UHGV virus genome: UHGV-0105381
From: a virus
DNA: 24,558 nucleotides
Reading direction: 5' to 3' (one strand)
How positions within the stretch are numbered: the first letter of the stretch is position 1; the number at the start of each line of letters is the position of its first letter. Position numbers and translations under genes: made by a program. Below the pieces are notes generated by a model. The model was not told where the DNA came from and made no database searches. It saw only the letters and a list, made by a program, of their open reading frames with translations. Positions 50-24,558 of the stretch are shown here, piece after piece.

Positions 50-1336
50 ATGTCCAGAAATACCCTCAACAAATTAACAGACCGTCAGTGCAAAGCAGCT
101 AAGCCACGAGACAAAACTTATAAATTGTCTGATGGTGGTGGTCTTTATCTTGAAGTATCCCAGACCGGGTCGAAGTATTGGCGAATGAAGTATCGCCGCC
201 CATCAGATAAGAAAGAAGACAGACTTGCTTTTGGTGTATATCCAACCATTAGCTTACAAGACGCCAGAGAAAAACGAGACAACGCCAAAAAGTTGTTAGT
301 CAAGGGGATAGATCCCAAAGCAGAGCAAAGAGAAGCAAAAGCAGAAGAAAAAGGTGCATTCACTTTTGAGACAATAGGACGTCAATGGGTTGAAAGCCAC
401 CAGATGTGGAACGAAGCCCACCGAAAACGCGTACTTAGAAGCCTTGAAATGTATATTTTCCCTCACATTGGCACTTCGGATATTCGCAAACTGGAGGCGA
501 TGACAATTTTACCTTTGTTTAAGAAGGTAGATGACGCCGGGAAACACGATACAGCCAACCGACTTAAACAACGAGTTAAGGACATCATACATAGCGCCCG
601 TCTGAGCGGCATTAAGACAGAAATCATCACGAATGATCTCGATGTCCGGTTAATGCAATATGAAACTAAGCATCATGCCGCACTACATCCCAGAGATTTA
701 CCAGACTTTTTCACTCGATTGGGCAGCTTTAAAGGTAATCCTCTTACCCGCCTTGCCATTGAGCTAACCATGTTGACCTTTGTTCGTTCAAGCGAGTTAA
801 GGTTTGCCCGTTGGAAAGAGTTTGACCTTGATCGGGCTGAGTGGATTATCCCTAAAAAAAGAGAGCCTATCGATGGTGTGAGGTTTTCCACCCGTGGCAC
901 AAAGACGGGAAAAGACGAACATATCGTGCTTCTTAGCCGTCAGGCTGTTTCTATTGTAAAGCAGTTGAGAGAACTAAGCGGAAGCTACGATGTTGTGTTT
1001 CCGAATGAAAGAAACACCAAAGGCGTGATGAGTGAAAACACGGTAAACAAGGCATTACGCTTAATGGGCTATAACACGCAAGAGGACGTAACTGGACATG
1101 GATTCCGTGCCACAGCCTGTAGTTCCCTGATGGAGTCCGGTTTGTGGCAGGAGGACGCAGTAGAGCGCCAGATGAGCCACAAAGAATATAAAGACGTTAA
1201 AAGAGCCTACAAGCACAAGGCTGATTACTTAGAAGAGCGCAAACTAATGCTTCAATGGTGGGCAGATTATCTGGACGCCAATCGAGAAATACACATAAGC
1301 CCTTACGAGTTCGGAAGGAGAACACGCCGTGACTAA
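50..1336 (+). CDS. int: Tyrosine recombinase / integrase, P4-like type with N-terminal arm-binding domain
   Basis: 428-aa ORF; N-terminal region (KLTDRQCKAAKP...YKLSDGGGLYLEV...KYWRMKYR) typical of P4-family integrases; C-terminal HGFRAT (H-x-x-R box) followed by conserved Tyr region. Family assignment recalled, not searched. Confidence 0.9.
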   Translation: MSRNTLNKLTDRQCKAAKPRDKTYKLSDGGGLYLEVSQTGSKYWRMKYRRPSDKKEDRLAFGVYPTISLQDAREKRDNAKKLLVKGIDPKAEQREAKAEEKGAFTFETIGRQWVESHQMWNEAHRKRVLRSLEMYIFPHIGTSDIRKLEAMTILPLFKKVDDAGKHDTANRLKQRVKDIIHSARLSGIKTEIITNDLDVRLMQYETKHHAALHPRDLPDFFTRLGSFKGNPLTRLAIELTMLTFVRSSELRFARWKEFDLDRAEWIIPKKREPIDGVRFSTRGTKTGKDEHIVLLSRQAVSIVKQLRELSGSYDVVFPNERNTKGVMSENTVNKALRLMGYNTQEDVTGHGFRATACSSLMESGLWQEDAVERQMSHKEYKDVKRAYKHKADYLEERKLMLQWWADYLDANREIHISPYEFGRRTRRD

Positions 1337-2069
1337 GATGACAGGACTAGATGCGTTTTATAACGAGTCAGAAGATAAAATCTGGTTTGGTAATCTGATC
1401 AGCGAACTGGCAAGACTAAACAATGAAAATGAAAGAATGATAGCTGCCGCTATCTTAAGTAACTACAGATTGAGCAAGACTAAACCAGATACTTTAGGGG
1501 GGCTGGGCTTTTATCAGTTCGATTGGGTATCTGGTTTTACGACTAATGAAGACTTTGAAAAGCAGAGTGTGGAGTTTTTAGGTCTTCTGGCTATGGGGCA
1601 TGAATACAGGGAGAGCCCGATACCGGGGGAAGAAGGGACTTTCAACGTTAGGAAAGGAGAAGACTTTTTATATCACGATGATGAGGATGATTGGTATGGG
1701 TCTTACGATTCGTTTTATTTCAAGCGGTCCGAGCTTGTGAGCTTCTTCCCAGAACTGGAAGATCACAACATTGATGAACCGATAGCAGAGGAAACAGAAA
1801 GTGGGTCGCTCCCCAGTGACTGGCGCGGCAAAAACACCGCCTGGAAAATGATTGCTGGGCTGGCGATTGCTTTATATGAATCCAGCGAGGACGTTAGAAA
1901 GAATGGAAAGCTCAACCAGTCCGCGGTGTGCGAGAAAGCAGCAAACAACATCGCAAAGTACAGTGAAGAATACAATGATGCTGGCATGACCATGGATAAT
2001 CTAAGAACGCTTCTAAAAAAGACTTTGCAGCGGCACGCACCCAATTTTTTGGGAAAGATAACCAAGTAA
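1329..2069 (+). CDS. Hypothetical acidic protein, translationally coupled to int (alternative ATG start at 1338)
   Basis: 246-aa ORF; GTG at 1329 has AAGGAG about 8 nt upstream and overlaps the int stop (TAA 1334-1336). Asp/Glu-rich central region; no motif recognised. Confidence 0.55.
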   Translation: MTKMTGLDAFYNESEDKIWFGNLISELARLNNENERMIAAAILSNYRLSKTKPDTLGGLGFYQFDWVSGFTTNEDFEKQSVEFLGLLAMGHEYRESPIPGEEGTFNVRKGEDFLYHDDEDDWYGSYDSFYFKRSELVSFFPELEDHNIDEPIAEETESGSLPSDWRGKNTAWKMIAGLAIALYESSEDVRKNGKLNQSAVCEKAANNIAKYSEEYNDAGMTMDNLRTLLKKTLQRHAPNFLGKITK

Positions 2070-2225
2070 AATAATTGATGTTCCCAAATTAGCTGGAGAG
2101 ACGAAAACAAACGCCCAATTTGGGACAATTCCTTTCCCGAAAACTTTTTCTCCAAATTCACAGAAAACTTAAAAAAACAATGATTTACTATCTCACATAG
2201 TCAAGCAACGTATTACGAGGTAGAT

Positions 2226-2417
2226 ATGAAAAAGTCGCTGATTCGGCTATCTGAGGTTTTGAAACGCACTGGCTATAGCAAGGCGTGGGTATATGCTCTG
2301 ATGAGCCGAGGACAATTCCCCCAATCAGTCAAGATTGGTTCTCGCGCAATAGCTTTTATTGAAAGCGAGATCGATGACTGGATCGATCAACGTATAGCCG
2401 AATCGCGTAGCAACTAA
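2226..2417 (+). CDS. alpA: AlpA-family phage transcriptional regulator / excisionase-like DNA-binding protein
   Basis: 63-aa ORF with RLSEVLKRTGYSKAWVYALMSRGQFPQSVKIGSRAIAFIESEIDDWI, matching the AlpA (Phage_AlpA) pattern; GAGGT RBS 7 nt upstream. Confidence 0.85.
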   Translation: MKKSLIRLSEVLKRTGYSKAWVYALMSRGQFPQSVKIGSRAIAFIESEIDDWIDQRIAESRSN

Positions 2418-2465
2418 AGAACAGAAACAAACAGGATACAAACAATACGTTATTAGGTATTAAGA

Positions 2466-2657
2466 ATGCAGTTGAAACCTACCAATCAAAAACTGAACGT
2501 AACCCATGTTGATTTTGAAACCTTCGCGGCACTGATTAGGTCAGAGCCACAAAAGGTGAGCACCAGCACCTGGGTTTATGATGTGAAATCCACCAGCGGT
2601 GGAAAAGCTATCGGCATTGCCTCTGGCGATGATTACTTAGTAATAGATCTGATTTAA
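2466..2657 (+). CDS. Small hypothetical protein
   Basis: 63-aa ORF in the same orientation as neighbours; weak RBS; no motif recognised. Confidence 0.35.
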   Translation: MQLKPTNQKLNVTHVDFETFAALIRSEPQKVSTSTWVYDVKSTSGGKAIGIASGDDYLVIDLI

Positions 2658-2682
2658 TCGCACAAAAATTGTAGAGTAATTT

Positions 2683-2704
2683 GGGGAGACAGGAAGTCTC
2701 CCCC
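2683..2704 (+). terminator. Hairpin GGGGAGAC-aggaag-GTCTCCCC followed by a T-containing tract; possible intrinsic terminator
   Basis: 8-bp perfect stem read from sequence, downstream of the 2466-2657 ORF; the U-tract is interrupted, so termination is uncertain. Confidence 0.4.
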
Positions 2705-2738
2705 GTATTGCATTTTGGTACAACAGTAAGGGAATAAA

Positions 2739-2933
2739 ATGATTAATTACCTGACCGTTAAAGACGCAGCAGAATATCTTGGCGTCTGTCTGTCACGCTT
2801 CTATCAGTTAAAGCGATATATCCCAAGCTTTCCTCCCTATATAAATCAGACCATCAATGGACGCAAGCGCCGGGTGTGGCTTGCCTCCAGCCTTGATCAA
2901 TTTGCCGACAGATTTCTGGGGGGACGAAAATGA
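2739..2933 (+). CDS. Small helix-turn-helix DNA-binding protein (excisionase/MerR-like HTH)
   Basis: 64-aa ORF; LTVKDAAEYLGVCLSRFYQL resembles Xis-type HTH; AAGGGA RBS; stop overlaps next ORF start (ATGA). Confidence 0.55.
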   Translation: MINYLTVKDAAEYLGVCLSRFYQLKRYIPSFPPYINQTINGRKRRVWLASSLDQFADRFLGGRK

Positions 2934-3316
2934 GCACTCTTACACGCTCTCAGGTCGCCGCGAATATACGCGATAGCCTACTAAGTGGCAGGAAGCTTAC
3001 CCCAAAGGAGTTTGACGACATATTAAGGAAAGCCGGAAATCACGAACGTAGTCGCGTTTTAACGCTGTTACGCAACGATTGGGGAATTCCTGTTGAGCAG
3101 TTTAAAACAGGGGCGTATCACGTCACAGAACGCAATTTAGAAGCATACCACAGCGATAAAGACGAAACATTGAAGATCTGGAGGACGAACGCCAGATATG
3201 TAAAGACATTGCGTAAGGTAAACATAACGTTGTCGTTGTTGCGTGGGCTGGTGGGCAAAGTGCCTGAAGACACGCTTAGAACTGTTTACAAGGGTATTGA
3301 AACCAAATACCTGTGA
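2930..3316 (+). CDS. Hypothetical protein
   Basis: 128-aa ORF translationally coupled to the upstream HTH gene; no recognised motif. Confidence 0.5.
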   Translation: MSTLTRSQVAANIRDSLLSGRKLTPKEFDDILRKAGNHERSRVLTLLRNDWGIPVEQFKTGAYHVTERNLEAYHSDKDETLKIWRTNARYVKTLRKVNITLSLLRGLVGKVPEDTLRTVYKGIETKYL

Positions 3317-3328
3317 TTGACAAAGCAG

Positions 3329-3355
3329 AAAGCCGACTTTGCGAGAGTCGGCTTT
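3329..3355 (+). terminator. Hairpin AAAGCCGACT-ttgcgag-AGTCGGCTTT; possible terminator after the 2930-3316 gene
   Basis: 10-bp stem read from sequence; 3' arm ends in TTT but no long U-tract follows. Confidence 0.4.
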
Positions 3356-3384
3356 GAATCAATTGAAATATATGAACTTTACAC

Positions 3385-5150
<1,766 letters not shown>

Positions 5151-12604: not shown

Positions 12605-14023
12605 ATGCCGATTCAGCAACTTCCGCTTATGAAAGGTGTCGGCAAAGACTTTCGAAACGCCGACTATATCGACTATCTGCCAGTGAATATGTTGGCTACA
12701 CCCAAAGAAATCCTGAACAGCAGCGGATATCTTCGCTCATTCCCGGGCATTGCCAAACGTTCTGATGTGAACGGCGTATCGCGAGGCGTCGAGTACAACA
12801 TGGCGCAGAATGCTGTTTATCGCGTGTGTGGTGGCAAACTGTATAAGGGCGAAAGTGAGGTCGGTGATGTTGCCGGAAGTGGTCGCGTATCAATGGCGCA
12901 TGGTCGAACATCACAGGCGGTAGGCGTTAACGGGCAACTGGTCGAATACCGCTATGATGGCACGGTTAAAACCGTCTCAAACTGGCCTGCAGACAGCGGG
13001 TTTACGCAGTATGAGTTAGGTTCGGTTCGCGACATTACGCGTTTACGTGGGCGTTATGCGTGGTCAAAAGACGGCACTGATTCATGGTTTATCACTGACC
13101 TTGAAGACGAATCGCATCCTGACCGTTACAGCGCACAATATCGTGCCGAGTCTCAGCCGGACGGCATCATCGGTATCGGGACATGGCGAGACTTCATCGT
13201 CTGCTTTGGTTCATCGACTATTGAATATTTCTCCCTTACTGGCGCAACCACCGTTGGTGCTGCTTTGTATGTCGCACAGCCATCACTGATGGTGCAAAAA
13301 GGCATCGCCGGGACTTACTGCAAAACGCCGTTTGCTGATTCTTATGCATTCATCAGCAATCCGGCAACAGGTGCGCCGTCTGTATACATCATCGGCTCCG
13401 GTCAGGTGTTACCAATCGCCAGCGCGAGCATTGAGAAAATCCTCCGCTCCTACACTGCTGATGAACTGGCTGATGGCGTGATGGAATCGTTGCGGTTTGA
13501 TGCTCATGAGTTGCTGATTATTCACCTGCCGCGCCATGTACTCGTGTACGACGCATCTTCAAGCGCTAATGGTCCGCAATGGTGTGTGCTGAAAACAGGC
13601 CTGTATGACGATGTGTACCGCGCTATCGACTTCATTTACGAAGGCAATCAGATAACGTGCGGCGATAAGCTGGAATCGGTTACCGGTAAATTGCAGTTCG
13701 ATATCAGCAGCCAGTACGACAAGCAACAGGAACACCTGCTGTTTACTCCATTGTTCAAAGCGGATAACGCAAGAGTGTTTGACCTTGAAGTTGAATCGTC
13801 AACTGGTGTTGCGCAGTACGCTGACCGCCTGTTCCTCTCTGCTACCACTGACGGCATCAATTACGGTCGTGAGCAGATGATTGAGCAGAATGAACCGTTT
13901 GTTTACGACAAACGCGTTTTGTGGAAGCGAGTCGGGCGCATCAGGAAAAATGTCGGCTTCAAATTGCGCGTTATCACGAAGTCACCTGTCACTCTGTCTG
14001 GTTGCCAGATAAGGATTGAGTAA
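12605..14023 (+). CDS. Tail accessory protein (P22 gp10-like)
   Basis: 472-aa ORF, the same length as P22 gp10 and in the syntenic position between gp4 and gp26 homologues. Confidence 0.8.
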
Positions 14024-14724
14024 TGGCTGATTCGAATCTCAACACCCCTGTTATTGTGCAGGCGACGCGGCTCGATACATCAATCCTTCCACGCAATATA
14101 TTCAGCCAGTCTTACCTGTTGTATGTCATTAATCAGGGGGCTGATGTCGGCGCAATTGCCGGGAAGGCAAATCAGGCTGGTCAGGGCGCTTACGATGCCC
14201 AGGTAAAAAACGATGAACAGGATGTCGAACTGGCTGATCACGACGCAAGAATCACCGCAAACACAAAAGCGATAAATCTCCTTGAGGTCAGGTTAACAAC
14301 CGCCGAAGGGAAGATAGTCATACTACGTAGCGATGTTGATTACTTGCTGGATGAGGTTATCGATATTCAGGCGCATCTGGTCACTGTTGACCAAATGCTG
14401 GATGACGTAGAAAACGATGTCTCTGGCATTAAGAGTGATTACGTATCGAAAACCGTAACCGAATCGCAGTCTCTTGCGTCACCGCTGGATGTAAAAACAT
14501 CATATTCAGTTGATGGAATTCAGGTTGTTGGAGCAAGAAATACCGGATGGACTGCAGCCACAGGTACACCTCTTTTGGGCTCATTCAACGCTAACCAGTC
14601 ATACACAGTCGGCACTACGTACACACAATCCGAAGTCGCAGCCCTCGCTACAGGGTTGCAGCAGGCGCGGCAGCGTATTCTGGCGCTTGAAACGGCACTT
14701 AGATTACATGGGCTGATTGACTGA
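14023..14724 (+). CDS. Tail needle / cell-envelope-penetrating protein (P22 gp26-like)
   Basis: 233-aa ORF; N-terminus [65 protein letters not shown] and C-terminus [13 protein letters not shown] closely match recalled P22 gp26. Confidence 0.9.
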
Positions 14725-15179
14725 TGATTACATTCAAACCAACGCGAAACATCGACCTGATAGAAGCCGTAGGAAATCACCCTGACATTATCGCCGGGAG
14801 CAACAACGGTGATGGATACGACTACAAACCTGATTACCGTTACTTTGAGGTGAACGTGCACGGGCAGTTCGGCGGAATTGTTTACTATCAGGAGATTCAG
14901 CCGCTAACCTTTGATTGCCACGCCATGTACCTGCCAGAGATTCGCGGCTTCAGCAAGGAAATCGGGCTGGCGTTCTGGCGATACATTCTGACTAACACCA
15001 CCGTTCAGTGCGTCACATCGTTCGCTGCGCGCAAATTCCGCCACGGGCAGATGTACTGCGCAATGATTGGCCTTAAGCGTGTAGGGACCATCAAGAAATA
15101 CTTCAAAGGCGTGGATGACGTGACGTTTTACAGCGCCACACGCGAAGAACTAATCGACTTCCTGAATCACAGGAGATAG
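14724..15179 (+). CDS. Virion-associated protein in the P22 gp14 position
   Basis: 151-aa ORF, start overlapping the gp26-like stop; assignment by synteny only. Confidence 0.55.
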   Translation: MITFKPTRNIDLIEAVGNHPDIIAGSNNGDGYDYKPDYRYFEVNVHGQFGGIVYYQEIQPLTFDCHAMYLPEIRGFSKEIGLAFWRYILTNTTVQCVTSFAARKFRHGQMYCAMIGLKRVGTIKKYFKGVDDVTFYSATREELIDFLNHRR

Positions 15180-15181
15180 CC

Positions 15182-15874
15182 ATGTTATATGCATTTAAGC
15201 TGGGCAGAAAACTGCGCGGCGAGGAACCTTATTACCCTGAAAAAGGCGGGAAAGGTGGCAGTTCTGATAAAAGCGCAAAGTATGCAGCAGAAGCTCAGAA
15301 GTATGCCGCAGACCTGCAAAATCAGCAGTGGCAGACGATCATGAAAAACCTTGCTCCGTTCACGCCTCTTGCGGAGCAGTATGTTAACCAGCTTCAGAAC
15401 ATTTCCAGTTTAGAAGGTCAGGGGCAGGCACTTAATCAGTATTACAACTCTCAGCAGTATAAAGACCTTGCAGGTCAGGCTCGTTACCAGAGTCTTGCTG
15501 CTGCGGAGGCGACTGGCGGACTTGGTTCGACAGCTACAAGCAATCAACTGGCCACGATTGCCCCGACTCTCGGTCAGTCGTGGTTGTCGAACCAGATGAG
15601 CAACTACAACAATCTGGCAAACATTGGCCTTGGTGCGCTGCAAGGTCAGGCGAACGCCGGGCAGACATACGCCAACAACATGAGCAGCATTGCGCAGCAA
15701 AGCGCAGCACTTGCCGCTGCTAACGCCAATAAACCATCAGGCCTTCAGACAGCAATTAGCGGTGGCACGTCTGGTGCGATTGCCGGTGCAGGTCTTGCCA
15801 GCCTTTTGGGAACATCAACGCCTTGGGGCGCTGGCATTGGTGCTGGTATCGGATTGCTTGGCTCGTTGTTTTAA
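15182..15874 (+). CDS. Ejection (DNA-transfer) protein, P22 gp7-like
   Basis: 230-aa ORF, syntenic; N-terminus MLYAF.LGRKLRGEEP.YPEKGGKGGS as recalled for gp7-type proteins; Gly/Ala-rich C-terminus. Confidence 0.75.
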   Translation: MLYAFKLGRKLRGEEPYYPEKGGKGGSSDKSAKYAAEAQKYAADLQNQQWQTIMKNLAPFTPLAEQYVNQLQNISSLEGQGQALNQYYNSQQYKDLAGQARYQSLAAAEATGGLGSTATSNQLATIAPTLGQSWLSNQMSNYNNLANIGLGALQGQANAGQTYANNMSSIAQQSAALAAANANKPSGLQTAISGGTSGAIAGAGLASLLGTSTPWGAGIGAGIGLLGSLF

Positions 15875-19269: not shown

Positions 19270-19755
19270 TTATCTGATGTTACTGCTACTGTTGCATGTG
19301 ACTGTATTTCCAAACCCTGAATTGCAGTTTGTGTAAGTTTCAACTCGTGTTGGATAGGGTTGAGTTATAACAGGCTGTCTCGCTTTTTGCTCGATCGCTT
19401 GCATTGTGTTTACAGCCTGATAATTCAATAAAGCCTGCTGGAATGCTTGGCTTTGCGCTATTTGTTGGGCTTGTTCTTGGCTTTGTAGTTGAACATAAAG
19501 ATTCTGAAGCTCAAGTCTTGCCTGCGCGTCACTTATCTTGCCATCATCGACACCTTGCCCGAGCATCTTCGCAGCAAGGACATATAACTTAGGTGTTGGT
19601 GCTGATGCCATGCGTGAGTCGTTCTTCACGCTAGCATCAAGGCAATTAGCCATATCGCTAAGCTTTGGATAGCGTTGTTCGCAATTTGCCTGATAGTCGC
19701 TAACCTTTGCGCACCCTGCCAGCAGAAGCGGGATAATTAACAGTGATTTTTTCAT
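19270..19755 (-). CDS. Lipoprotein of unknown function (moron in the sieA position)
   Basis: Start at MKKSLLIIPLLLAGC with lipobox LAGC; AAGGAGAG RBS upstream; the ORF-track N-terminal extension is probably not used. The +2 residue is Ala, which by the +2 rule predicts outer-membrane sorting. Confidence 0.7.
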   Translation of the reverse strand: MKKSLLIIPLLLAGCAKVSDYQANCEQRYPKLSDMANCLDASVKNDSRMASAPTPKLYVLAAKMLGQGVDDGKISDAQARLELQNLYVQLQSQEQAQQIAQSQAFQQALLNYQAVNTMQAIEQKARQPVITQPYPTRVETYTNCNSGFGNTVTCNSSSNIR

Positions 19756-19889
19756 ATGATTAACTCTCCTTATCTTTGCCATCATGGCACTGTTGGGTGT
19801 AAATGAGTTATTAACTCAATCGACAATATCTTCACGAAAATACTTTTTATTATTAAGATCTTTCTGATTCTAACAAAACGGAAAGTAAT

Positions 19890-20309
19890 ATGAAGAGGAT
19901 TATCGGCGTCGTTGCTGGCGCTATATTGTTATCTGGGTGCGCAACTATTGTTGGTGATGAAACGCAGCTTGTGCAAGTGAACAGCAATCCTTCTGGCGCG
20001 AGCTTTAAGGTAAAAGATGAATCTGGTGTGATTGTTGCGCAAGGTAAGACTCCACAAGGTGTAACACTCGCCAAGTCAGATGGTAGCTATTTTGGCAAAA
20101 AGAGCTACCAGATCACTATGGAGAAGGATGGGTACGAACCAGTTACCCTGCCAATCAAAGCCAATGCTAATGGTTGGTATATTGGTGGGAACCTTGTGTT
20201 TGGTGGGTTAATTGGTTGGCTTGCTGTAGATCCATTTAATGGTGGGATGTATACCTTGAAGCCTAAAGAGGCAAATGCATCCCTTATACCGTCCACAAAG
20301 CAAGACTAA
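19890..20309 (+). CDS. Lipoprotein with PEGA-like domain (moron in the sieA position)
   Basis: 139-aa ORF; signal peptide with lipobox LSGC; SNPSGASFKV...GKTPQGVTL...YQITMEKDGYEP resembles the PEGA domain pattern; Gly-rich hydrophobic C-terminal segment. Confidence 0.7.
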   Translation: MKRIIGVVAGAILLSGCATIVGDETQLVQVNSNPSGASFKVKDESGVIVAQGKTPQGVTLAKSDGSYFGKKSYQITMEKDGYEPVTLPIKANANGWYIGGNLVFGGLIGWLAVDPFNGGMYTLKPKEANASLIPSTKQD

Positions 20310-20712: not shown

Positions 20713-23358
20713 ATGACAGACATTACAGCCAATGTTGTAGTGAGTATGCCTTCGCAACTCTTCACTATGGCTCGTTCTTTTAAAGCCGTAGCCAATGGCA
20801 AAATTTATATCGGTAAAATTGACACTGACCCGGTAAATCCTGAAAACCAGATTCAGGTCTATGTTGAGAACGAAGATGGTTCTCACGTTCCTGTTGCACA
20901 GCCAATCGTCATCAATGCCGCAGGGTATCCAGTATATAACGGACAGATTGCCAAATTCGTTACCGTGCAAGGCCATTCTATGGCTGTTTATGATGCGTAT
21001 GGTGCACAGCAGTTCTATTTTCCTAATGTGCTGAAGTATGACCCGGATCAGTTTAAACAAAAAGTATTATCAAATGATATGCTAAATATGTCTCCTCTTT
21101 ATTTTGGAGCTAAGGGGGATGGGATTAGCGATGATACTGAAGCATTTGTCGCGTTGGAAATGGATATAAAAAATAGGGTTATTGATTTAAGTGGAAGAGC
21201 ATTTTTTGTTACTAAAAGTTTTATTGGAAATAGCTATATAAATGGTTCTTTTATTCGTGATGGCAGTAAACGAATTGCGATTGGTGATCTTAAATTAAGA
21301 GATAAAAGAGAGCCATTGATATTTTCCGGAATGCCAAAAGTATATAACACCAGACACACGTTGCGCAGAACTGAAGGTGCGGGTGGTTTATATGCGGTCA
21401 TTCAGGGGTGTTGTTATGATGAAATTAACGACAAGATTTTTACTTTATCATCTACCACAGCATACGGTTATTGCATTAATGCCTTTGACGTGACGAATTC
21501 TGGTGAACTAGGAAGATACGACAGAACCCGTTCTACTGAACTTGGGCATCAGGGGCTTGGATTGCATCATAATCCTGATGGTACTGTCGTGCTGTGGACA
21601 TCGAAGCCTTATGGAACCGATGCCGCCAATCAATGTATTTCGATGGAAAATATATTGAGTTACACAGGGACAACCAACGGAGTATCTGAAGGTTTTATCA
21701 CCTGGAAGTTGTTCCCCTATGATGGAATGAGCGCAAGCTCTACTCCAACTGTATCAAGTTGTGAAAACTATCTACTTGCCAAGAAAATTTCATCGGATGG
21801 AATTACCTGCACGGTTCGTGTTTTCGACATAGTCAGCATGTGGAATAACAGAGCTCATAAAACTGATTATAGTGATGATTATTTAGTTGAGTTTAGCTAT
21901 CAAAAACCATCACAAGAAGCATTTACCCAATCAATTGCTTGCGATGGGGCATACATTTACATACTTGAGTCACATACGTATGTTGGCATGACTAATTATA
22001 TTTACGTATTTGACTTAACAGGCAGGTTTATTGAGCGAGTAGATATTTCAACTGTTGGTGATGATGAAGCAAAATCTGACAGTACAGGAACTCCTGTTTA
22101 TAAAGAGCCTGAGTCCCTAACAGTAATTAGAACGGAGAGTGGGTATGTTTTAACGCTGGGGATATGCACATATAAAGGAGTTGCTGAGAACGGGAAAAAT
22201 GTATATCTGTTTGATATAGGCAGGTCTGGTTCGGTAGTGCAAAGCAAAGCAAGCCGTTCTGTATCCAGTAATACTGGTCTTCATAGTTCTGGCTCCCCGG
22301 AGTTCAAATATGGAGTAAGGGAGTACAATGATACTTTTCACTGGATAGTTTGGCCAACAAGAAAGGGTATTCAAACTAACCGGGATAACCCTATATTGTT
22401 TCTTGATGGCGGAATTACTGGTGGAATGCAGTTAGCTTCAAACGGCACGGAAGGGATGAGCAACTCATGGGTTTCCCGGCATCAGTCAGACACCGCAGAA
22501 GGACCAAGAGCAATAATGTATAAGTCTCGCTCTGGTGTTGTATCAACTGATAATTTTGGAGCTCTGCAGACAGGGGATGTATTGGGTACTCATGTATGGG
22601 CCGGTGATACAGGTAGTAAGGCTGTGCAATGCGCACACATTAAATGCGTCACAAGAGGTAATCCTTCCGGAGACAATATCCCGGTTGCTTTCTACTTTGG
22701 AACCATGGGAGAGAGTGACGGCTTGCGTGACAGATGGGTATTAACAGAATTAGGTCATTTTCGACCATCAGGTTCAAATCTTTATGATATTGGTACACAG
22801 TCGAATACTGTCAGAAACCTGTATATAAATAATAGCCCCATTGTAACCAGCGACAGAAATTATAAGCAGGATGAAGCTTCATTATCTGATGCAGAACTAC
22901 GGGTTGGAATGGCTATTTACCCGCTGATAAAAAAATTCAGAATGAAGGATGCTGTAAAAGAAAAAGGCTTGTCAGCGCGTGAGCATATCGGTGTAATTGC
23001 GCAAGATATACAATCCATCTTTGAATCTGAGGGGCTTGATGCATTTTCTTATGGGGTTCTTTGCTATGAAGAGTGGGATGATGAGTATGAGAAAGTCTAT
23101 GCAACAAGAAATGTGACCAGAAAAATTTTAATTGATGAAGAGTCTGGTCAGTATGATGAAATCACAGAGGAAGAAGAGTATGAAACTGGTGAAGTAAGGT
23201 TAATTATGGAATCAGGAAGAAAATTATCAGTGCGCTATGACGAGTTAATGTTTCTGGCAATGAGCGCACTATATCATCACCATGAGCAGGATATTGCCAA
23301 TATCACATCAAAGATTAATAATCTGGAAAAATTATTAAAGTTAACACTAAATGGTTGA
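20713..23358 (+). CDS. Mosaic tailspike: P22-type N-terminal head-binding domain, pectate-lyase-like beta-helix receptor-binding domain, C-terminal intramolecular chaperone (peptidase S74-like) domain
   Basis: 881-aa ORF; aa 1-114 ([11 protein letters not shown]...[33 protein letters not shown]...[12 protein letters not shown]...NVLKYDPDQ) match recalled P22 gp9; [14 protein letters not shown] follows; C-terminus has an SDAELR...GVIAQDIQ autoproteolytic chaperone-like region. Nucleotide composition turns AT-rich after about nt 21050. Confidence 0.9.
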
Positions 23359-23379
23359 TATGTGGTACTTTTAATGTAT

Positions 23380-23406
23380 GCCCAGCTACATGCTGGGCAA
23401 TGTTTT
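23380..23406. terminator. Hairpin GCCCAGC-tacat-GCTGGGC followed by AATGTTTT, between the convergent tailspike and glycosyltransferase genes
   Basis: 7-bp perfect stem read from sequence, 22 nt after the tailspike stop; T-rich downstream on the plus strand. Confidence 0.7.
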
Positions 23407-24520
23407 AAATTTCAGCTATAAAACCTTCATAATTATTTTGTAAAAAAGGTTTGATGAACTTACGCTGAGGGGTATAAATCATATCCTGATTTACTAAATC
23501 TGAGCGGATATTGAAAGTGGTTGAGAGCATGTTAAAGAACATCCTTTTCTTTTGCTCGTTGCCACCTGCTTTACCACATACCTTTTCCATCATTTCAAGG
23601 CATATCACCAGCCACGCATTGTAAAGCTTGGCCTTTTCTTCGTTAGTTTTTCCGCAAAAGTAAATCGTGTTAATAACCGAGTTAAGAATGAAGTGTCTAT
23701 CTTCAAGAGGAAATTTTTGCCTTGATAAATGACCATTACCATGGAATGTTAAATGATAATAATCTTTGTCAGCAAGAATAGATATATTGTTTGCTACAGA
23801 TAGAGATTGAACCATAAATATTTTATCTTCAGCTACGGTGATAGCTGGGTTGAAGAGAATGTTATGCTCTTTAAGCATATTTCTTCGGAAGAATTTGAAA
23901 ATAGTTAACGACCGCAAGAGGTGATGCTTGGTTATATCTGCCTTATCTACAATTTTCACCTTGTATGGACGGATAGGCACCTCGCGATTACCATCTGATG
24001 CAATTTTGAAGTAAACAATATCACTATTATTTTTATCAGCAATATGAACCCCTCTCTCAAGAAGAGTTTCGTCAATATAGTCATCGGAATCCATGAAGAA
24101 AATATAACGCCCTTTTGCTGCTTTTATCCCCTCATTTCGCGGGGTTGAAGCGTTACCTGAACCAATTTCTCGGCGAATAATTCTGTAGTTAATATCCGGT
24201 GCTATATTATATTCTATAGCAGCAATGCTTTTGTCACTTGAACAATCATCGACAAAAATAACCTCAAAGCGATCCTTATTAATTGTTTGGTTATTAAGTG
24301 AGTTAATGCATTTAAGAATAAGTTTTTCACGATTATGAACAGGGATAACAACTGACACATCTAATGGGCAAAAATGGTTAATCTCATTAACTACAGTCGT
24401 TATTTTAGTAAAAGCCGCCAACAAAGCTGTTGTTAAATCAGTAGAAGATAAAAGGCTTTCTTTTTTAGTATTAGCTTTTATGTTAAAATAGAACCAATTA
24501 TTACGAGGTACAAAATCCAC
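23405..24520 (-). CDS. Family-2 glycosyltransferase (GT-A fold); 5' end unresolved, reading frame stays open upstream to the window edge
   Basis: VSVVIPVHNREK nucleotide-sugar binding motif and FFMDSDDYID (DxD) motif; AT-rich; minimal ORF starts at GTG 24520 without an RBS, and the frame continues through the tetranucleotide tract with no stop. Confidence 0.85.
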   Translation of the reverse strand: MDFVPRNNWFYFNIKANTKKESLLSSTDLTTALLAAFTKITTVVNEINHFCPLDVSVVIPVHNREKLILKCINSLNNQTINKDRFEVIFVDDCSSDKSIAAIEYNIAPDINYRIIRREIGSGNASTPRNEGIKAAKGRYIFFMDSDDYIDETLLERGVHIADKNNSDIVYFKIASDGNREVPIRPYKVKIVDKADITKHHLLRSLTIFKFFRRNMLKEHNILFNPAITVAEDKIFMVQSLSVANNISILADKDYYHLTFHGNGHLSRQKFPLEDRHFILNSVINTIYFCGKTNEEKAKLYNAWLVICLEMMEKVCGKAGGNEQKKRMFFNMLSTTFNIRSDLVNQDMIYTPQRKFIKPFLQNNYEGFIAEI

Positions 24521-24536
24521 GCTTACAAATGGCTGT

Positions 24537-24558
24537 CTGGCTGGCTGGCTGGCTGGCT
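24537..24558. repeat. Tetranucleotide tandem repeat (CTGG)n, at least 5.5 units, truncated by the window end
   Basis: CTGGCTGGCTGGCTGGCTGGCT read directly; on the glycosyltransferase coding strand it is (CCAG)n/(AGCC)n and in frame encodes (QPAS)n. Confidence 0.9.

What the first reader, a model, noticed from the sequence alone, without database searches (positions are those of the whole stretch)
23405..24558. AT-rich GT2 glycosyltransferase with a tetranucleotide tract in its 5' region: candidate phase-variable serotype-conversion gene
A minus-strand GT2 gene (VIPVHN and DxD motifs) sits convergent with the tailspike, where P22-like phages carry O-antigen conversion genes. Its frame continues upstream, with no stop and no RBS at the first in-window start (GTG 24520), into at least 5.5 copies of CTGG, i.e. 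(CCAG)n on the coding strand, translating as (QPAS)n. Gain or loss of one unit would shift the frame, the classic slipped-strand contingency mechanism known for lipooligosaccharide glycosyltransferases in Haemophilus and Neisseria. Tetranucleotide contingency tracts are not a commonly described feature of enterobacterial prophage conversion genes.
Basis: partly seen in the sequence, partly recalled or inferred. Interest (0 to 1): 0.75.

Follow-up and report, generated by a model that had tools for sequence, protein, structure and literature searches.

The report
Hypermutable repeat switch in prophage glycosyltransferase
A phage-carried sugar-transferase gene in E. coli contains a run of 2 to 69 copies of the four-letter unit CCAG whose length differs even between laboratory sub-strains, shifting the gene in and out of frame; this kind of random on/off switch is hardly known in E. 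coli.

Summary
The window ends inside a (CCAG)n tract on the coding strand of a GT2 gene that is convergent with a P22-like tailspike. Near-identical complete genomes show what lies beyond the window: 46 or 69 perfect units, then a 52-codon leader with a Shine-Dalgarno sequence and an ATG. Tract-free homologues read straight from that leader into the enzyme, so the tract lies inside the ORF, in a hairpin loop at about codon 53. Across 31 complete-genome loci and 4 viral contigs the tract has 4-69 units, and protein records add 2-, 3- and 5-unit in-frame forms. Ten E. coli B laboratory genomes carry 7, 10, 21, 34, 35 or 45 units, while 4.7 kb of flanking sequence is identical. About a quarter of loci are in frame. 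The catalytic ORF is intact everywhere, and dN/dS is 0.08. This is a slipped-strand contingency switch. The closest precedent is neuO on prophage CUS-3, which uses a heptanucleotide repeat. The enzyme resembles the teichoic-acid glycosyltransferases TarS and TarP. Its partner tailspike resembles S. aureus phage receptor-binding proteins. Hosts are strongly enriched for a polyol-phosphate group 2 capsule locus, so the likely target is capsule rather than O antigen. That target is not proven. I found no publication describing this locus.

The parts
24530..24558 (-). 3' end of the (CCAG)n contingency tract on the coding strand (CTGG on +). There are 5.5 perfect units (24537-24558), one variant unit (ACAG) and a partial unit. 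The tract runs off the window end.
   Evidence: Full tracts of 46 and 69 units occur in near-identical loci L001 and L002.
23405..24529 (-). Post-tract coding region of the glycosyltransferase. It holds the second half of the small N-terminal module, a long helix, the GT-A catalytic domain (VIPVHN, DSDD) and a helical C-terminal subdomain. The stop codon is at 23405-23407.
   Evidence: Pfam PF00535 E 1e-31. Family alignment A1. AF2 model of homologue P0002, pLDDT 90.8. Similarity to TarS, TarP and RmlT.
24518..24520 (-). GTG that gene callers use as the start of a 371-aa product. It is probably not the native start.
   Evidence: No Shine-Dalgarno sequence upstream. It falls inside the conserved N-module at strand 62-68 of the model. 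PGAP uses it only where the tract is out of frame.
23379..23399 (.). GC-rich hairpin (TGCCCAGCTACATGCTGGGCA) in the 46-nt gap between the convergent tailspike and GT genes. It is a likely bidirectional terminator.
   Evidence: Terminator-like site at L001 6080-6100, which maps to window 23379-23399. Sequence visible.
20713..23358 (+). Tailspike, the partner gene of the module. It has a P22 head-binding anchor (1-113), a central beta-propeller-type receptor-binding domain (about 115-700) and a C-terminal S74 intramolecular chaperone.
   Evidence: Pfam. PDB sequence search. The central domain has only 17 homologues, two of which sit convergent with GT homologues in other phage types. AF2 plus Foldseek: the top 9 hits are S. 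aureus phage RBPs.

Best explanation
The gene is a prophage-borne contingency locus. SHOWN: the true ORF starts outside the window at an ATG with a Shine-Dalgarno sequence. It encodes a 52-residue leader, then (CCAG)n, which reads as (QPAS)n in every frame, then the GT2 body that lies in the window. The tract occupies the loop of a beta-hairpin in a small conserved N-terminal module. Only one class of n mod 3 gives the full-length enzyme: n = 2 mod 3 for the window allele and n = 0 mod 3 for the E. coli B allele. The other two frames stop within 35 nt of the tract. Repeat number changes on laboratory time-scales while the flanks stay identical. INFERRED: the changes arise by slipped-strand mispairing at replication, which gives heritable, reversible, stochastic ON/OFF switching whose rate rises with tract length. 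INFERRED, less certain: the enzyme is a cytoplasmic TarS/TarP-like transferase that adds a sugar to a polyol-phosphate (ribitol-phosphate type) group 2 capsule polymer. That is the same glycan read by the adjacent propeller-type tailspike or fibre. Lysogens would then flip between decorated and undecorated capsule, trading superinfection exclusion, other-phage sensitivity and antigenicity.
For: Anatomy: ATG, SD, leader and tract seen in L001 and L002. The same leader is fused directly to the GT in tract-free alleles (L003 after removing an IS2, identical to P0002; also P0008). In a 27-sequence family alignment the tract site is the one hypervariable loop between conserved strands. In the AF2 model (pLDDT 90.8) the loop is residues 54-61, between strands 45-53 and 62-68. 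Hypermutability: unit counts are 4, 5, 6, 7, 7, 10, 10, 11, 15, 18, 19, 20, 21, 34x3, 35x4, 45, 46, 50, 60, 66, 69, plus 12, 18, 18, 18, 23, 59 derived from match spans and validated on 5 controls. Ten E. coli B-lineage genomes show 7, 10, 21, 34, 34, 35, 35, 35, 35, 45 units with 0-1 mismatch in 4,700 flanking nt. Four independent assemblies agree on 35. Sister isolates CFSAN061763 and CFSAN061768 differ by one unit with 0 mismatches in 5,156 nt. The window allele itself exists with 2 units (ON, P0126 and P0130), 4, 46 and 69 units. Frame logic: every single-ORF annotation (449-513 aa) sits in the predicted n class, and 8 of 31 complete-genome loci are ON against 1/3 expected. Maintained gene: the body ORF is intact (370-375 aa) in all 28 loci whether ON or OFF. 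dN/dS is 0.079 at dS 0.47. Function: TarS E 5e-62, TarP 6e-57, RmlT 2e-35. Foldseek TM is up to 0.85 on the target. Family members lie in capsule loci beside CDP-ribitol-synthase-type and TagF-like genes in Campylobacter, Psychrobacter and a metagenomic contig, and in region 2 of an E. coli-type kps locus (P0008). REL606's own kps region 2 is of this type and is IS1-inactivated. That capsule type is in 51 of 5,426 genomes but in 19 of 30 GT hosts. For non-B genomes the figures are 8/18 against 12/5,375, OR 358, p 3e-16. The tailspike core is most similar to the RBPs of S. aureus phages phi11, 80alpha, P68 and NF5. Adsorption of phi11 and P68 depends on GlcNAc-decorated ribitol-phosphate teichoic acid (PMC6532042).
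Against: No switching rate, read-level heterogeneity or phenotype was measured; everything is comparative. Both long-tract genomes of the window allele are OFF. Some counts come from long-read assemblies, and two tracts look error-prone (HET6 has an extra C; DETEC-P881 is garbled). REL606's 7 units could be a collapse from clone-based sequencing. In E. coli B the capsule pathway is broken by IS1, so the variation there shows mutability but not selection. Twelve of 30 hosts have neither polyol-phosphate capsule type tested, so the acceptor assignment is incomplete. The tailspike model is only moderate (pLDDT 70, TM about 0.38). Low-level initiation at the internal GTG, which would make OFF leaky, is not excluded.
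Confidence: 0.8

Rival explanations
1. The tract is an unstable but functionless low-complexity linker in a decaying prophage 'moron' gene. On this view the frameshifts are ordinary pseudogenisation, not a selected switch.
For: The ON fraction (8/31) is about what neutral drift over frames gives. In E. coli B the presumed acceptor pathway is inactivated by IS1 and the P2-like prophage is itself defective. Both 46- and 69-unit copies of the window allele are OFF.
Against: The catalytic ORF is intact in 28 of 28 loci despite being OFF in most. dN/dS is 0.08. The tract is kept at the same codon in at least four diverged GT bodies and on two phage types. A frame distribution near 1/3 is also what sequenced contingency loci show. 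Perfect tracts of up to 69 units are not expected to persist without selection for mutability.
Confidence: 0.12
2. The switch is real, but the acceptor is O antigen or LPS core, as the first reader assumed (classical serotype conversion), not capsule.
For: P22-like phages classically carry O-antigen-modifying genes near the tailspike and int (established knowledge). P2-type fibres often bind LPS core. Twelve of 30 hosts lack both polyol-phosphate capsule types tested. Some E. coli O antigens contain ribitol- or glycerol-phosphate (own knowledge, not tested).
Against: There are no gtrA- or gtrC-like partners. The closest non-phage relatives are all in ABC-transporter capsule loci, including an E. 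coli-type kps region 2. Hosts are strongly enriched for one capsule type (OR 358). The tailspike carries an endosialidase-type S74 chaperone, and relatives carry the endosialidase N-terminal domain.
Confidence: 0.25
3. The tract lies in the 5' UTR or promoter, and the enzyme starts at the GTG (24520) as annotated. Repeat number would then tune transcription or have no effect.
For: PGAP annotates a 370-373-aa GT from this GTG in most genomes.
Against: There is no SD before the GTG. The leader is conserved at protein level across 27 family members, with invariant W29, V37 and R69. It forms one folded module together with residues downstream of the tract. Tract-free and in-frame alleles give a single 429-513-aa ORF. 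Both alternative frames stop within 35 nt.
Confidence: 0.03
4. The length differences are assembly or sequencing artefacts of a hard-to-assemble repeat.
For: Draft assemblies break at the tract. Two long-read assemblies show internal errors. Short-read metagenome contigs may collapse repeats (4-5 units in L004 and L029).
Against: Four independent assemblies of E. coli B derivatives give exactly 35 and two give 34. In the 24 of 26 complete-genome loci with perfect tracts, lengths differ by whole units and the flanks are error-free. The lengths agree with independent PGAP ORF calls, ON or OFF, in every genome.
Confidence: 0.03

Closest known systems
[quoted passage not shown] 2005, as summarised in PMC3046976)
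   Same: Both are carried by a P22-like E. coli prophage in the tailspike-proximal accessory slot. Both have an SSR inside the 5' coding region whose unit is not a multiple of 3, and very wide copy-number ranges (2-93 for neuO, 2-69 here). In both, only one class in three is ON and the repeat is translated into a variable peptide. neuO modifies a group 2 capsule; the same is probable here.
   Different: neuO has the heptanucleotide AAGACTC two nt after the start codon; here the unit is the tetranucleotide CCAG at codon 53, inside a folded module. neuO is a left-handed beta-helix acetyltransferase; this is a GT2 glycosyltransferase. This locus also occurs on P2-like prophages. Its acceptor is not polysialic acid, and no experimental data exist for it.
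Tetranucleotide contingency loci of Haemophilus influenzae and Neisseria (lic2A, lgtC, lex2A LOS glycosyltransferases; AGCC tracts in mod genes); from own knowledge plus PMC2651432 and PMC11868660 as listed
   Same: These also have a tetranucleotide tract within the 5' ORF of a surface-glycan glycosyltransferase, with frame-dependent ON/OFF. The repeat is the same sequence as the AGCC tracts of phase-variable mod genes, rotated by one base.
   Different: The host here is E. coli, where the 2025 phase-variation review cites only fim and pap mechanisms. The locus is phage-borne and mobile. The tracts are much longer than is typical. The enzyme families are unrelated (the LOS enzymes are GT25 and GT8).
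TarP, the prophage-encoded wall-teichoic-acid glycosyltransferase of S. aureus, with TarS and Listeria RmlT
   Same: These are the best sequence and fold matches (E 5e-62 to 2e-35; TM up to 0.85 on the target). TarP is prophage-encoded. It re-decorates a ribitol-phosphate polymer that is also a phage receptor, and so alters the host range of other phages (PMC6532042).
   Different: Identity is only about 25%. Those hosts are Gram-positive. TarS and TarP carry C-terminal oligomerisation or extra domains, whereas this protein has an N-terminal alpha/beta module. tarP has no SSR. The acceptor here is inferred, not shown.
gtrABC O-antigen glucosylation cassettes of P22, SfX and other P22-like phages
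   Same: Both are lysogenic-conversion functions in P22-like prophages, and both are phase-variable in Salmonella.
   Different: The gtr system has three membrane proteins acting through a bactoprenol-linked sugar in the periplasm, and its phase variation is by Dam/OxyR methylation (title and abstract of PMC3688519, plus own knowledge). Here there is one soluble GT2 and an SSR frameshift.

Membership tests
Simple-sequence-repeat contingency locus (Moxon type) | Perfect tandem repeat, with a unit length not divisible by 3, inside the ORF or promoter | tested here: met
   (CCAG)n lies between codon 53 and the rest of the ORF; tracts of up to 69 units are perfect.
Simple-sequence-repeat contingency locus (Moxon type) | Repeat number is polymorphic among closely related strains while the flanks are conserved | tested here: met
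   E. coli B lineage has 7-45 units with 0-1 mismatch in 4.7 kb. Sister isolates have 7 and 6 units with 0 mismatches in 5.2 kb.
Simple-sequence-repeat contingency locus (Moxon type) | Full-length product only in one reading-frame class; early stops in the other two | tested here: met
   ON only at n=2 mod 3 (window allele) or n=0 mod 3 (B allele). OFF frames stop 9-33 nt after the tract.
Simple-sequence-repeat contingency locus (Moxon type) | High-frequency, reversible switching measured within a clonal population, with a phenotype | not testable with these tools
   Needs reporter or fragment-length assays or raw reads. Only between-genome comparisons were possible.
neuO-type mobile contingency locus (CUS-3) | Carried by a prophage, next to the receptor-binding protein gene | tested here: met
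   The window is a P22-like late operon. The GT is convergent with the tailspike. It is also beside the fibre gene of P2-like prophages.
neuO-type mobile contingency locus (CUS-3) | Heptanucleotide AAGACTC repeat directly after the start codon of an LbetaH O-acetyltransferase | tested here: not met
   Here a tetranucleotide CCAG lies 157 nt after the ATG of a GT2. The locus is analogous to neuO, not homologous.
neuO-type mobile contingency locus (CUS-3) | The enzyme modifies the group 2 capsule of the lysogen | tested here: inconclusive
   Hosts are enriched for one polyol-phosphate kps type (19/30 against 51/5,426), but 12 hosts lack it and there is no chemistry.
GT2 / GT-A inverting glycosyltransferases (Pfam PF00535) | Significant match to the family model, with the DxD metal/nucleotide-sugar motif | tested here: met
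   PF00535 E 1.2e-31, 110 bits against a cutoff of 23. D207-S-D-D210 and D154-D155 are invariant in 27 sequences.
TarS/TarP/RmlT-type polyol-phosphate polymer glycosyltransferases | Catalytic plus acceptor-binding helical subdomain homologous over about 310 residues | tested here: met
   Profile against PDB: TarS residues 2-311, E 5e-62; TarP E 6e-57. Foldseek E 1e-25, TM up to 0.85 on the target.
TarS/TarP/RmlT-type polyol-phosphate polymer glycosyltransferases | C-terminal oligomerisation or extra domains of TarS, TarP and RmlT | tested here: not met
   The protein ends at the helical subdomain (434 aa), and matches cover only TarS 2-311 of 572. It has an N-terminal alpha/beta module instead.
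TarS/TarP/RmlT-type polyol-phosphate polymer glycosyltransferases | The acceptor is a ribitol-phosphate polymer | not testable with these tools
   Support is indirect only: neighbours are CDP-ribitol-synthase-type and TagF-like genes.
gtrABC O-antigen conversion cassette | Three-gene unit: GtrA flippase, GtrB bactoprenol GT and a membrane GtrC | tested here: not met
   It is a single gene. No further ORFs are annotated between it and int or the prophage end. The model shows a soluble GT-A with no membrane domain.

The most novel reading that the evidence does not exclude
A mobile two-gene cassette has moved between podovirus-, myovirus- and siphovirus-type prophages of Enterobacteriaceae by swapping only the anchor domain of the receptor-binding protein. 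The cassette pairs a phi11-like propeller receptor-binding protein with a TarP-like glycosyltransferase. It targets teichoic-acid-like (ribitol-phosphate) capsules, which makes it a Gram-negative counterpart of the S. aureus WTA/TarP/phage-receptor system. In E. coli the transferase has acquired a hypermutable tetranucleotide tract, born from a CCAA-CCAG proto-repeat. Lysogens would therefore stochastically switch capsule glycosylation on and off. This would be the first tetranucleotide contingency locus in E. coli, and it is present even in E. coli B laboratory stocks.
Probability: 0.4. Interest if true: 0.85.

Novelty: new variant of a known kind. Interest (0 to 1): 0.72.

Why it matters
E. 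coli is usually described as switching surface structures by DNA inversion or methylation. SSR contingency loci are seen as a speciality of Haemophilus, Neisseria, Campylobacter and Helicobacter, with neuO as the lone E. coli exception. This locus shows a second, unrelated and widespread case, with hundreds of isolates across three protein clusters. It uses a classic tetranucleotide tract of exceptional length and moves on at least two phage types.

Annotation pipelines currently mis-handle it. They produce split genes, '(LAGW)n hypothetical proteins' and 'PT domain' peptides, and short-read assemblies break at it, so it is systematically invisible. It offers a tractable E. coli model for tetranucleotide instability, because E. 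coli B stocks already differ. It also points to an undescribed phage-capsule interaction in which the prophage both reads and rewrites a teichoic-acid-like K antigen. That bears on phage host range, phage therapy and capsule-based typing or vaccines.

Tried and rejected
1. The phage GenBank collection (megablast) gave no match.

2. The exact leader-tract junction was absent from the one-genome-per-species collection, so I have no evidence outside E. coli for the tract itself.

3. Literature: searches on tetranucleotide, prophage, E. coli and glycosyltransferase terms; on CCAG with REL606 or BL21; on the literal repeat and the QPAS peptide; and on contingency, prophage and tail fibre terms found no description of this locus. 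The CCAG hits were Dcm motifs or primers. Studier et al. 2009 (J Mol Biol) could not be read.

4. A protein search with the Campylobacter CDP-ribitol synthase returned no E. coli sequence in the top 120, so it was useless for host co-occurrence.

I got round this with a chimeric query. That showed the EC958-type gene is absent from all GT hosts, so I rejected the idea that the remaining 12 hosts carry that capsule type.

6. The internal GTG start was rejected (see the rival explanations).

7. A gtr-type O-antigen cassette was rejected on gene content.

8. NCBIfam has no equivalog for the GT (best hit 81 bits against a cutoff of 423) and no match at all for the tailspike.

10. The apparent circular permutation in Campylobacter homologues rests on one weak BLASTP hit (E 0.002). 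I do not rely on it.
Full report
**1. The observation**

The minus strand of window 23405-24520 encodes a 371-aa ORF starting at a GTG. It is a family-2 glycosyltransferase (PF00535, E 1.2e-31; motifs VIPVHN and DSDD). Upstream of the GTG the frame stays open to the last base of the window. The final 29 bases are a period-4 repeat: TRF reports 24530-24558 with 7.2 copies. There are 5.5 perfect CTGG units (CCAG on the coding strand) preceded by one variant unit, ACAG. A 20-nt version of the pattern is expected 0.00 times in shuffled windows. No Shine-Dalgarno sequence precedes the GTG. The gene has 34.5% G+C in a 47.1% window. It is convergent with an 881-aa tailspike (P22 head-binding domain plus S74 chaperone), and a GC-rich hairpin lies between the two genes. 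The rest of the window is a P22-like late operon: terminase, portal, coat, ejection proteins and an Arc/Mnt-like regulator. The description is therefore correct.

**2. What lies beyond the window**

Two complete E. coli genomes hold the region at 99.9% identity: strain C from cow's milk, and GMF054. In both, the tract continues as a perfect (CCAG)46 or (CCAG)69. Before the tract come 157 nt encoding MKTDITAISENIVEFFEKTTLRDHIKKTWLYNENCFVIDFEYKGVKFALDFT, with an ATG and AGAGG 7 nt upstream. A TTCACA-17-TATAAT promoter-like site lies about 235 nt further up. The total number of such sites in the region is not above chance, however.

The window stops where it does because short-read assemblies break at the tract. 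All 24 contigs read that encode the identical partial protein P0001 end at the tract boundary. Other partial proteins begin with QPASQP….

**3. The tract is inside the gene**

An 89%-identical allele in strains CUVM3 and CPww7 has no tract. After removing an IS2 and its 5-bp target duplication, it is one continuous 434-aa ORF, identical to database protein P0002. Its leader aligns residue for residue with the one above.

Twenty-seven full-length family members share this N-terminal module (invariant W29, V37, R69). The tract site is the single hypervariable, indel-rich loop between two conserved strands. An AlphaFold model of P0002 (mean pLDDT 90.8) places the site in the loop (residues 54-61) of a beta-hairpin within a small alpha/beta module. 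A long helix and the GT-A domain follow.

CCAG repeated reads QPAS in all three frames, so the tract never creates a stop. It only sets the downstream frame. Both wrong frames terminate within 35 nt.

A tract-free relative in a capsule locus (P0008) reads …G CCAA CCAG AC… at this exact position. That is one A-to-G change away from two tandem units, which gives a plausible origin for the tract.

**4. The tract is hypermutable**

The leader DNA finds 31 loci in 30 of 5,426 complete E. coli genomes. Two are the window's P22-like context. Twenty-nine are a 58%-identical allele in P2-like prophages, between the sheath and fibre genes and again convergent with the receptor-binding gene.

Directly counted unit numbers are 4, 5, 6, 7, 7, 10, 10, 11, 15, 18, 19, 20, 21, 34, 34, 34, 35, 35, 35, 35, 45, 46, 50, 60, 66 and 69. 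Six more (12, 18, 18, 18, 23, 59) follow from match spans, a method validated on five controls.

Ten genomes of the E. coli B laboratory lineage give the clearest evidence:

| Genome(s) | Units |
|---|---|
| REL606 | 7 |
| AS19 | 10 |
| ATCC 11303 | 21 |
| B, B-StaR, B-LamR, B-ZidR | 35 |
| B-RalR, B-DidR | 34 |
| B-DolR | 45 |

Their 4,700 flanking bases show 0-1 mismatch. Four independent assemblies agree on 35, which argues against assembly noise. Sister isolates CFSAN061763 and CFSAN061768 differ by one unit with no other difference in 5,156 nt. CUVM3 and CPww7 differ by three units and are both in frame.

The window's own allele occurs with 2 units (in frame; P0126 and P0130, 430 aa), 4, 46 and 69 units. 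Two long-read assemblies (HET6, DETEC-P881) have internally imperfect tracts. I treat those as unreliable.

**5. Frame logic and maintenance**

Single long ORFs (449-513 aa) are annotated exactly where n falls in the predicted class. Elsewhere PGAP splits the gene into a leader-QPAS peptide and a GTG-started 'glycosyltransferase'. Sometimes it adds a spurious reverse-strand (LAGW)n protein. Eight of 31 complete-genome loci are ON, close to the one-third expected when sampling a switching locus.

The catalytic ORF is intact (370-375 aa) in all 28 loci examined, ON or OFF. dN/dS between the window allele and the 89% allele is 0.079 at dS 0.47. The tract sits at the same codon in at least four diverged enzyme bodies: P0001, the B type, the P0012 type and P0004. 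These features fit a maintained contingency gene better than a decaying pseudogene.

**6. What the enzyme probably does**

The profile of the family matches S. aureus TarS (E 5e-62), the prophage-encoded TarP (6e-57) and Listeria RmlT (2e-35) over the catalytic and acceptor-binding subdomains. The model superposes on them with TM up to 0.85 on the target. All three decorate poly(ribitol-phosphate) teichoic acid in the cytoplasm.

Non-phage family members lie in ABC-transporter capsule loci next to a cytidylyltransferase-SDR fusion (CDP-ribitol-synthase architecture) and TagF-like polyol-phosphate transferases. This is seen in Campylobacter coli, Psychrobacter and a metagenomic contig. P0008 (53% identical, same leader) lies beside kpsS-C-U-D in an E. 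coli-type group 2 locus.

I then checked a real host. REL606's kps region 2 encodes a TagF-like transferase and an IspD/TarI gene separated from its SDR half by IS1A. That capsule type occurs in 51 of 5,426 complete genomes but in 19 of the 30 GT hosts, including strain C, which carries the window allele. Outside the B/BL21 lineage the figures are 8 of 18 against 12 of 5,375 (odds ratio 358, p 3e-16). With sister pairs collapsed the odds ratio is 268 and p is 4e-12.

The association is not complete. Twelve hosts lack this type, and none has the EC958-type ribitol locus either.

**7. The partner gene**

The tailspike's central 586 residues have only 17 homologues among 5.8 billion proteins. They occur behind at least four different N-terminal anchors and always end in the S74 chaperone. 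Two of them are the proteins that sit convergent with GT homologues in a Leclercia prophage and in a lambdoid prophage: P0287 (73% identical, with P0006) and P0293 (56% identical, with P0013).

Tailspike identity and GT identity fall together:

| Source | Tailspike identity to window | GT identity to window allele |
|---|---|---|
| Window-type loci | 100% | 100% |
| CUVM3 (L003) | 97.6% | 89% |
| Leclercia | 73% | 58% |
| Lambdoid contig | 56% | 44% |
| P0012 type | 38% | 52% |

The P2-type fibre of E. coli B has its own anchor (PF12571), a distantly similar central region (E 2e-6) and the same chaperone.

A moderate AlphaFold model (pLDDT 70, with a core near 90) finds as its nine best PDB matches the receptor-binding proteins of S. 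aureus phages phi11, 80alpha, P68 and NF5 (E 1e-11 to 1e-14, against about 1e-6 for generic propellers). A related tailspike weakly hits PF21311, the phage five-bladed propeller RBD. Adsorption of phi11 and P68 depends on GlcNAc-decorated ribitol-phosphate teichoic acid. TarP, itself prophage-borne, changes which phages can adsorb (PMC6532042).

So two independent lines, the enzyme and the receptor-binding protein, point to the same polymer chemistry.

**8. Mechanism and confidence**

- Shown: the anatomy, the frame dependence, and length change at laboratory time-scales.
- Inferred with high confidence (about 0.8): slipped-strand mispairing gives reversible ON/OFF switching of the enzyme.
- Inferred with moderate confidence (about 0.5): the enzyme glycosylates a polyol-phosphate group 2 capsule that the prophage's own receptor-binding protein recognises. 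ON lysogens would then alter the receptor or antigen.
- Not addressed: switching rates, the sugar donor, and the phenotype.

**9. Comparison and novelty**

The principle is known. The closest case is neuO on prophage CUS-3. It has a heptanucleotide tract of 2-93 copies in the 5' coding region, is ON at multiples of three, and modifies the K1 capsule (PMC3046976). The present locus is analogous, not homologous. It differs in repeat unit, repeat position, enzyme family and probable acceptor, and it occurs on two phage types.

The tetranucleotide design matches Haemophilus and Neisseria LOS genes, but those are chromosomal and unrelated. A 2025 review of phase variation cites E. coli only for fim and pap. 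A 2025 preprint on phage contingency loci (T2/T4) does not mention prophage glycosyltransferases. No searchable paper prints this repeat or its peptide in this context. Subscription literature could not be searched.

I rate the finding a new variant of a known kind, with interest 0.72.

Noticed in passing
window 50-4047: A P4-type tyrosine integrase (50-1336; PF13356, PF22022 and PF00589) sits directly upstream of TerS, TerL and the portal gene, together with unknown ORFs and a 220-aa ORF (3385-4047) that weakly hits REP_ORF2-G2P (E 7e-07). This is not the canonical P22 gene order. It may be a satellite or PICI-like insert, or a mosaic junction.
   Followed up: partly
L001 7230-7430; L002 7230-7712; L009 2531-2773: RefSeq/PGAP annotates the reverse strand of the tract as a 'hypothetical protein' made of (LAGW)n, or the leader-QPAS peptide as a 'PT domain-containing protein'. 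It splits the gene in OFF genomes. This is systematic mis-annotation caused by the tract.
   Followed up: yes
E. coli strain C NZ_CP029371 (L001, and record positions 13728-15241); CUVM3 (L003, L024): Single genomes carry two copies of the gene family on two different prophages. Strain C has a P22-type copy with 46 units and a P2-type copy with about 59 units. CUVM3 has a tract-free P22-type copy that is IS2-disrupted and a P2-type copy with 15 units that is ON.
   Followed up: partly
L052 (REL606 3,012,353-3,028,461): E. coli B's group 2 capsule locus has a polyol-phosphate-type region 2 whose cytidylyltransferase-SDR gene is split by IS1A. BL21 derivatives keep this locus but gave no match to the GT leader, so they appear to have lost that part of the P2-like prophage.
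   Followed up: partly
window 21055-22812 (tailspike central domain): This receptor-binding domain is very rare (17 homologues in 5.8e9 proteins). It is recombined behind at least four different phage anchor domains (PF09008, PF18668, PF12218/PF21311, PF03906). Its best fold matches are S. aureus phage RBPs.
   Followed up: partly
P0041 (Campylobacter coli, L041 8001-9317): Campylobacter and Psychrobacter homologues (about 49% identical over the GT body) seem to carry the small module at the C-terminus instead of the N-terminus. This could be a circular permutation, but the evidence is one weak BLASTP hit (E 0.002).
   Followed up: partly
window 19270-19785 (-), 19890-20309 (+): Two small accessory ORFs lie between the ejection-protein genes and the Arc-like regulator. 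They match only function-unknown PHROGs (6067 and 6823).
   Followed up: no
L019 (HET6), L025 (DETEC-P881): Two complete genomes have imperfect tracts. HET6 has 12 units, an extra C and then 20 units. DETEC-P881 has about 85 units with scattered substitutions and indels. These could be long-read errors or genuine tract decay, and the sequence alone cannot tell which.
   Followed up: no
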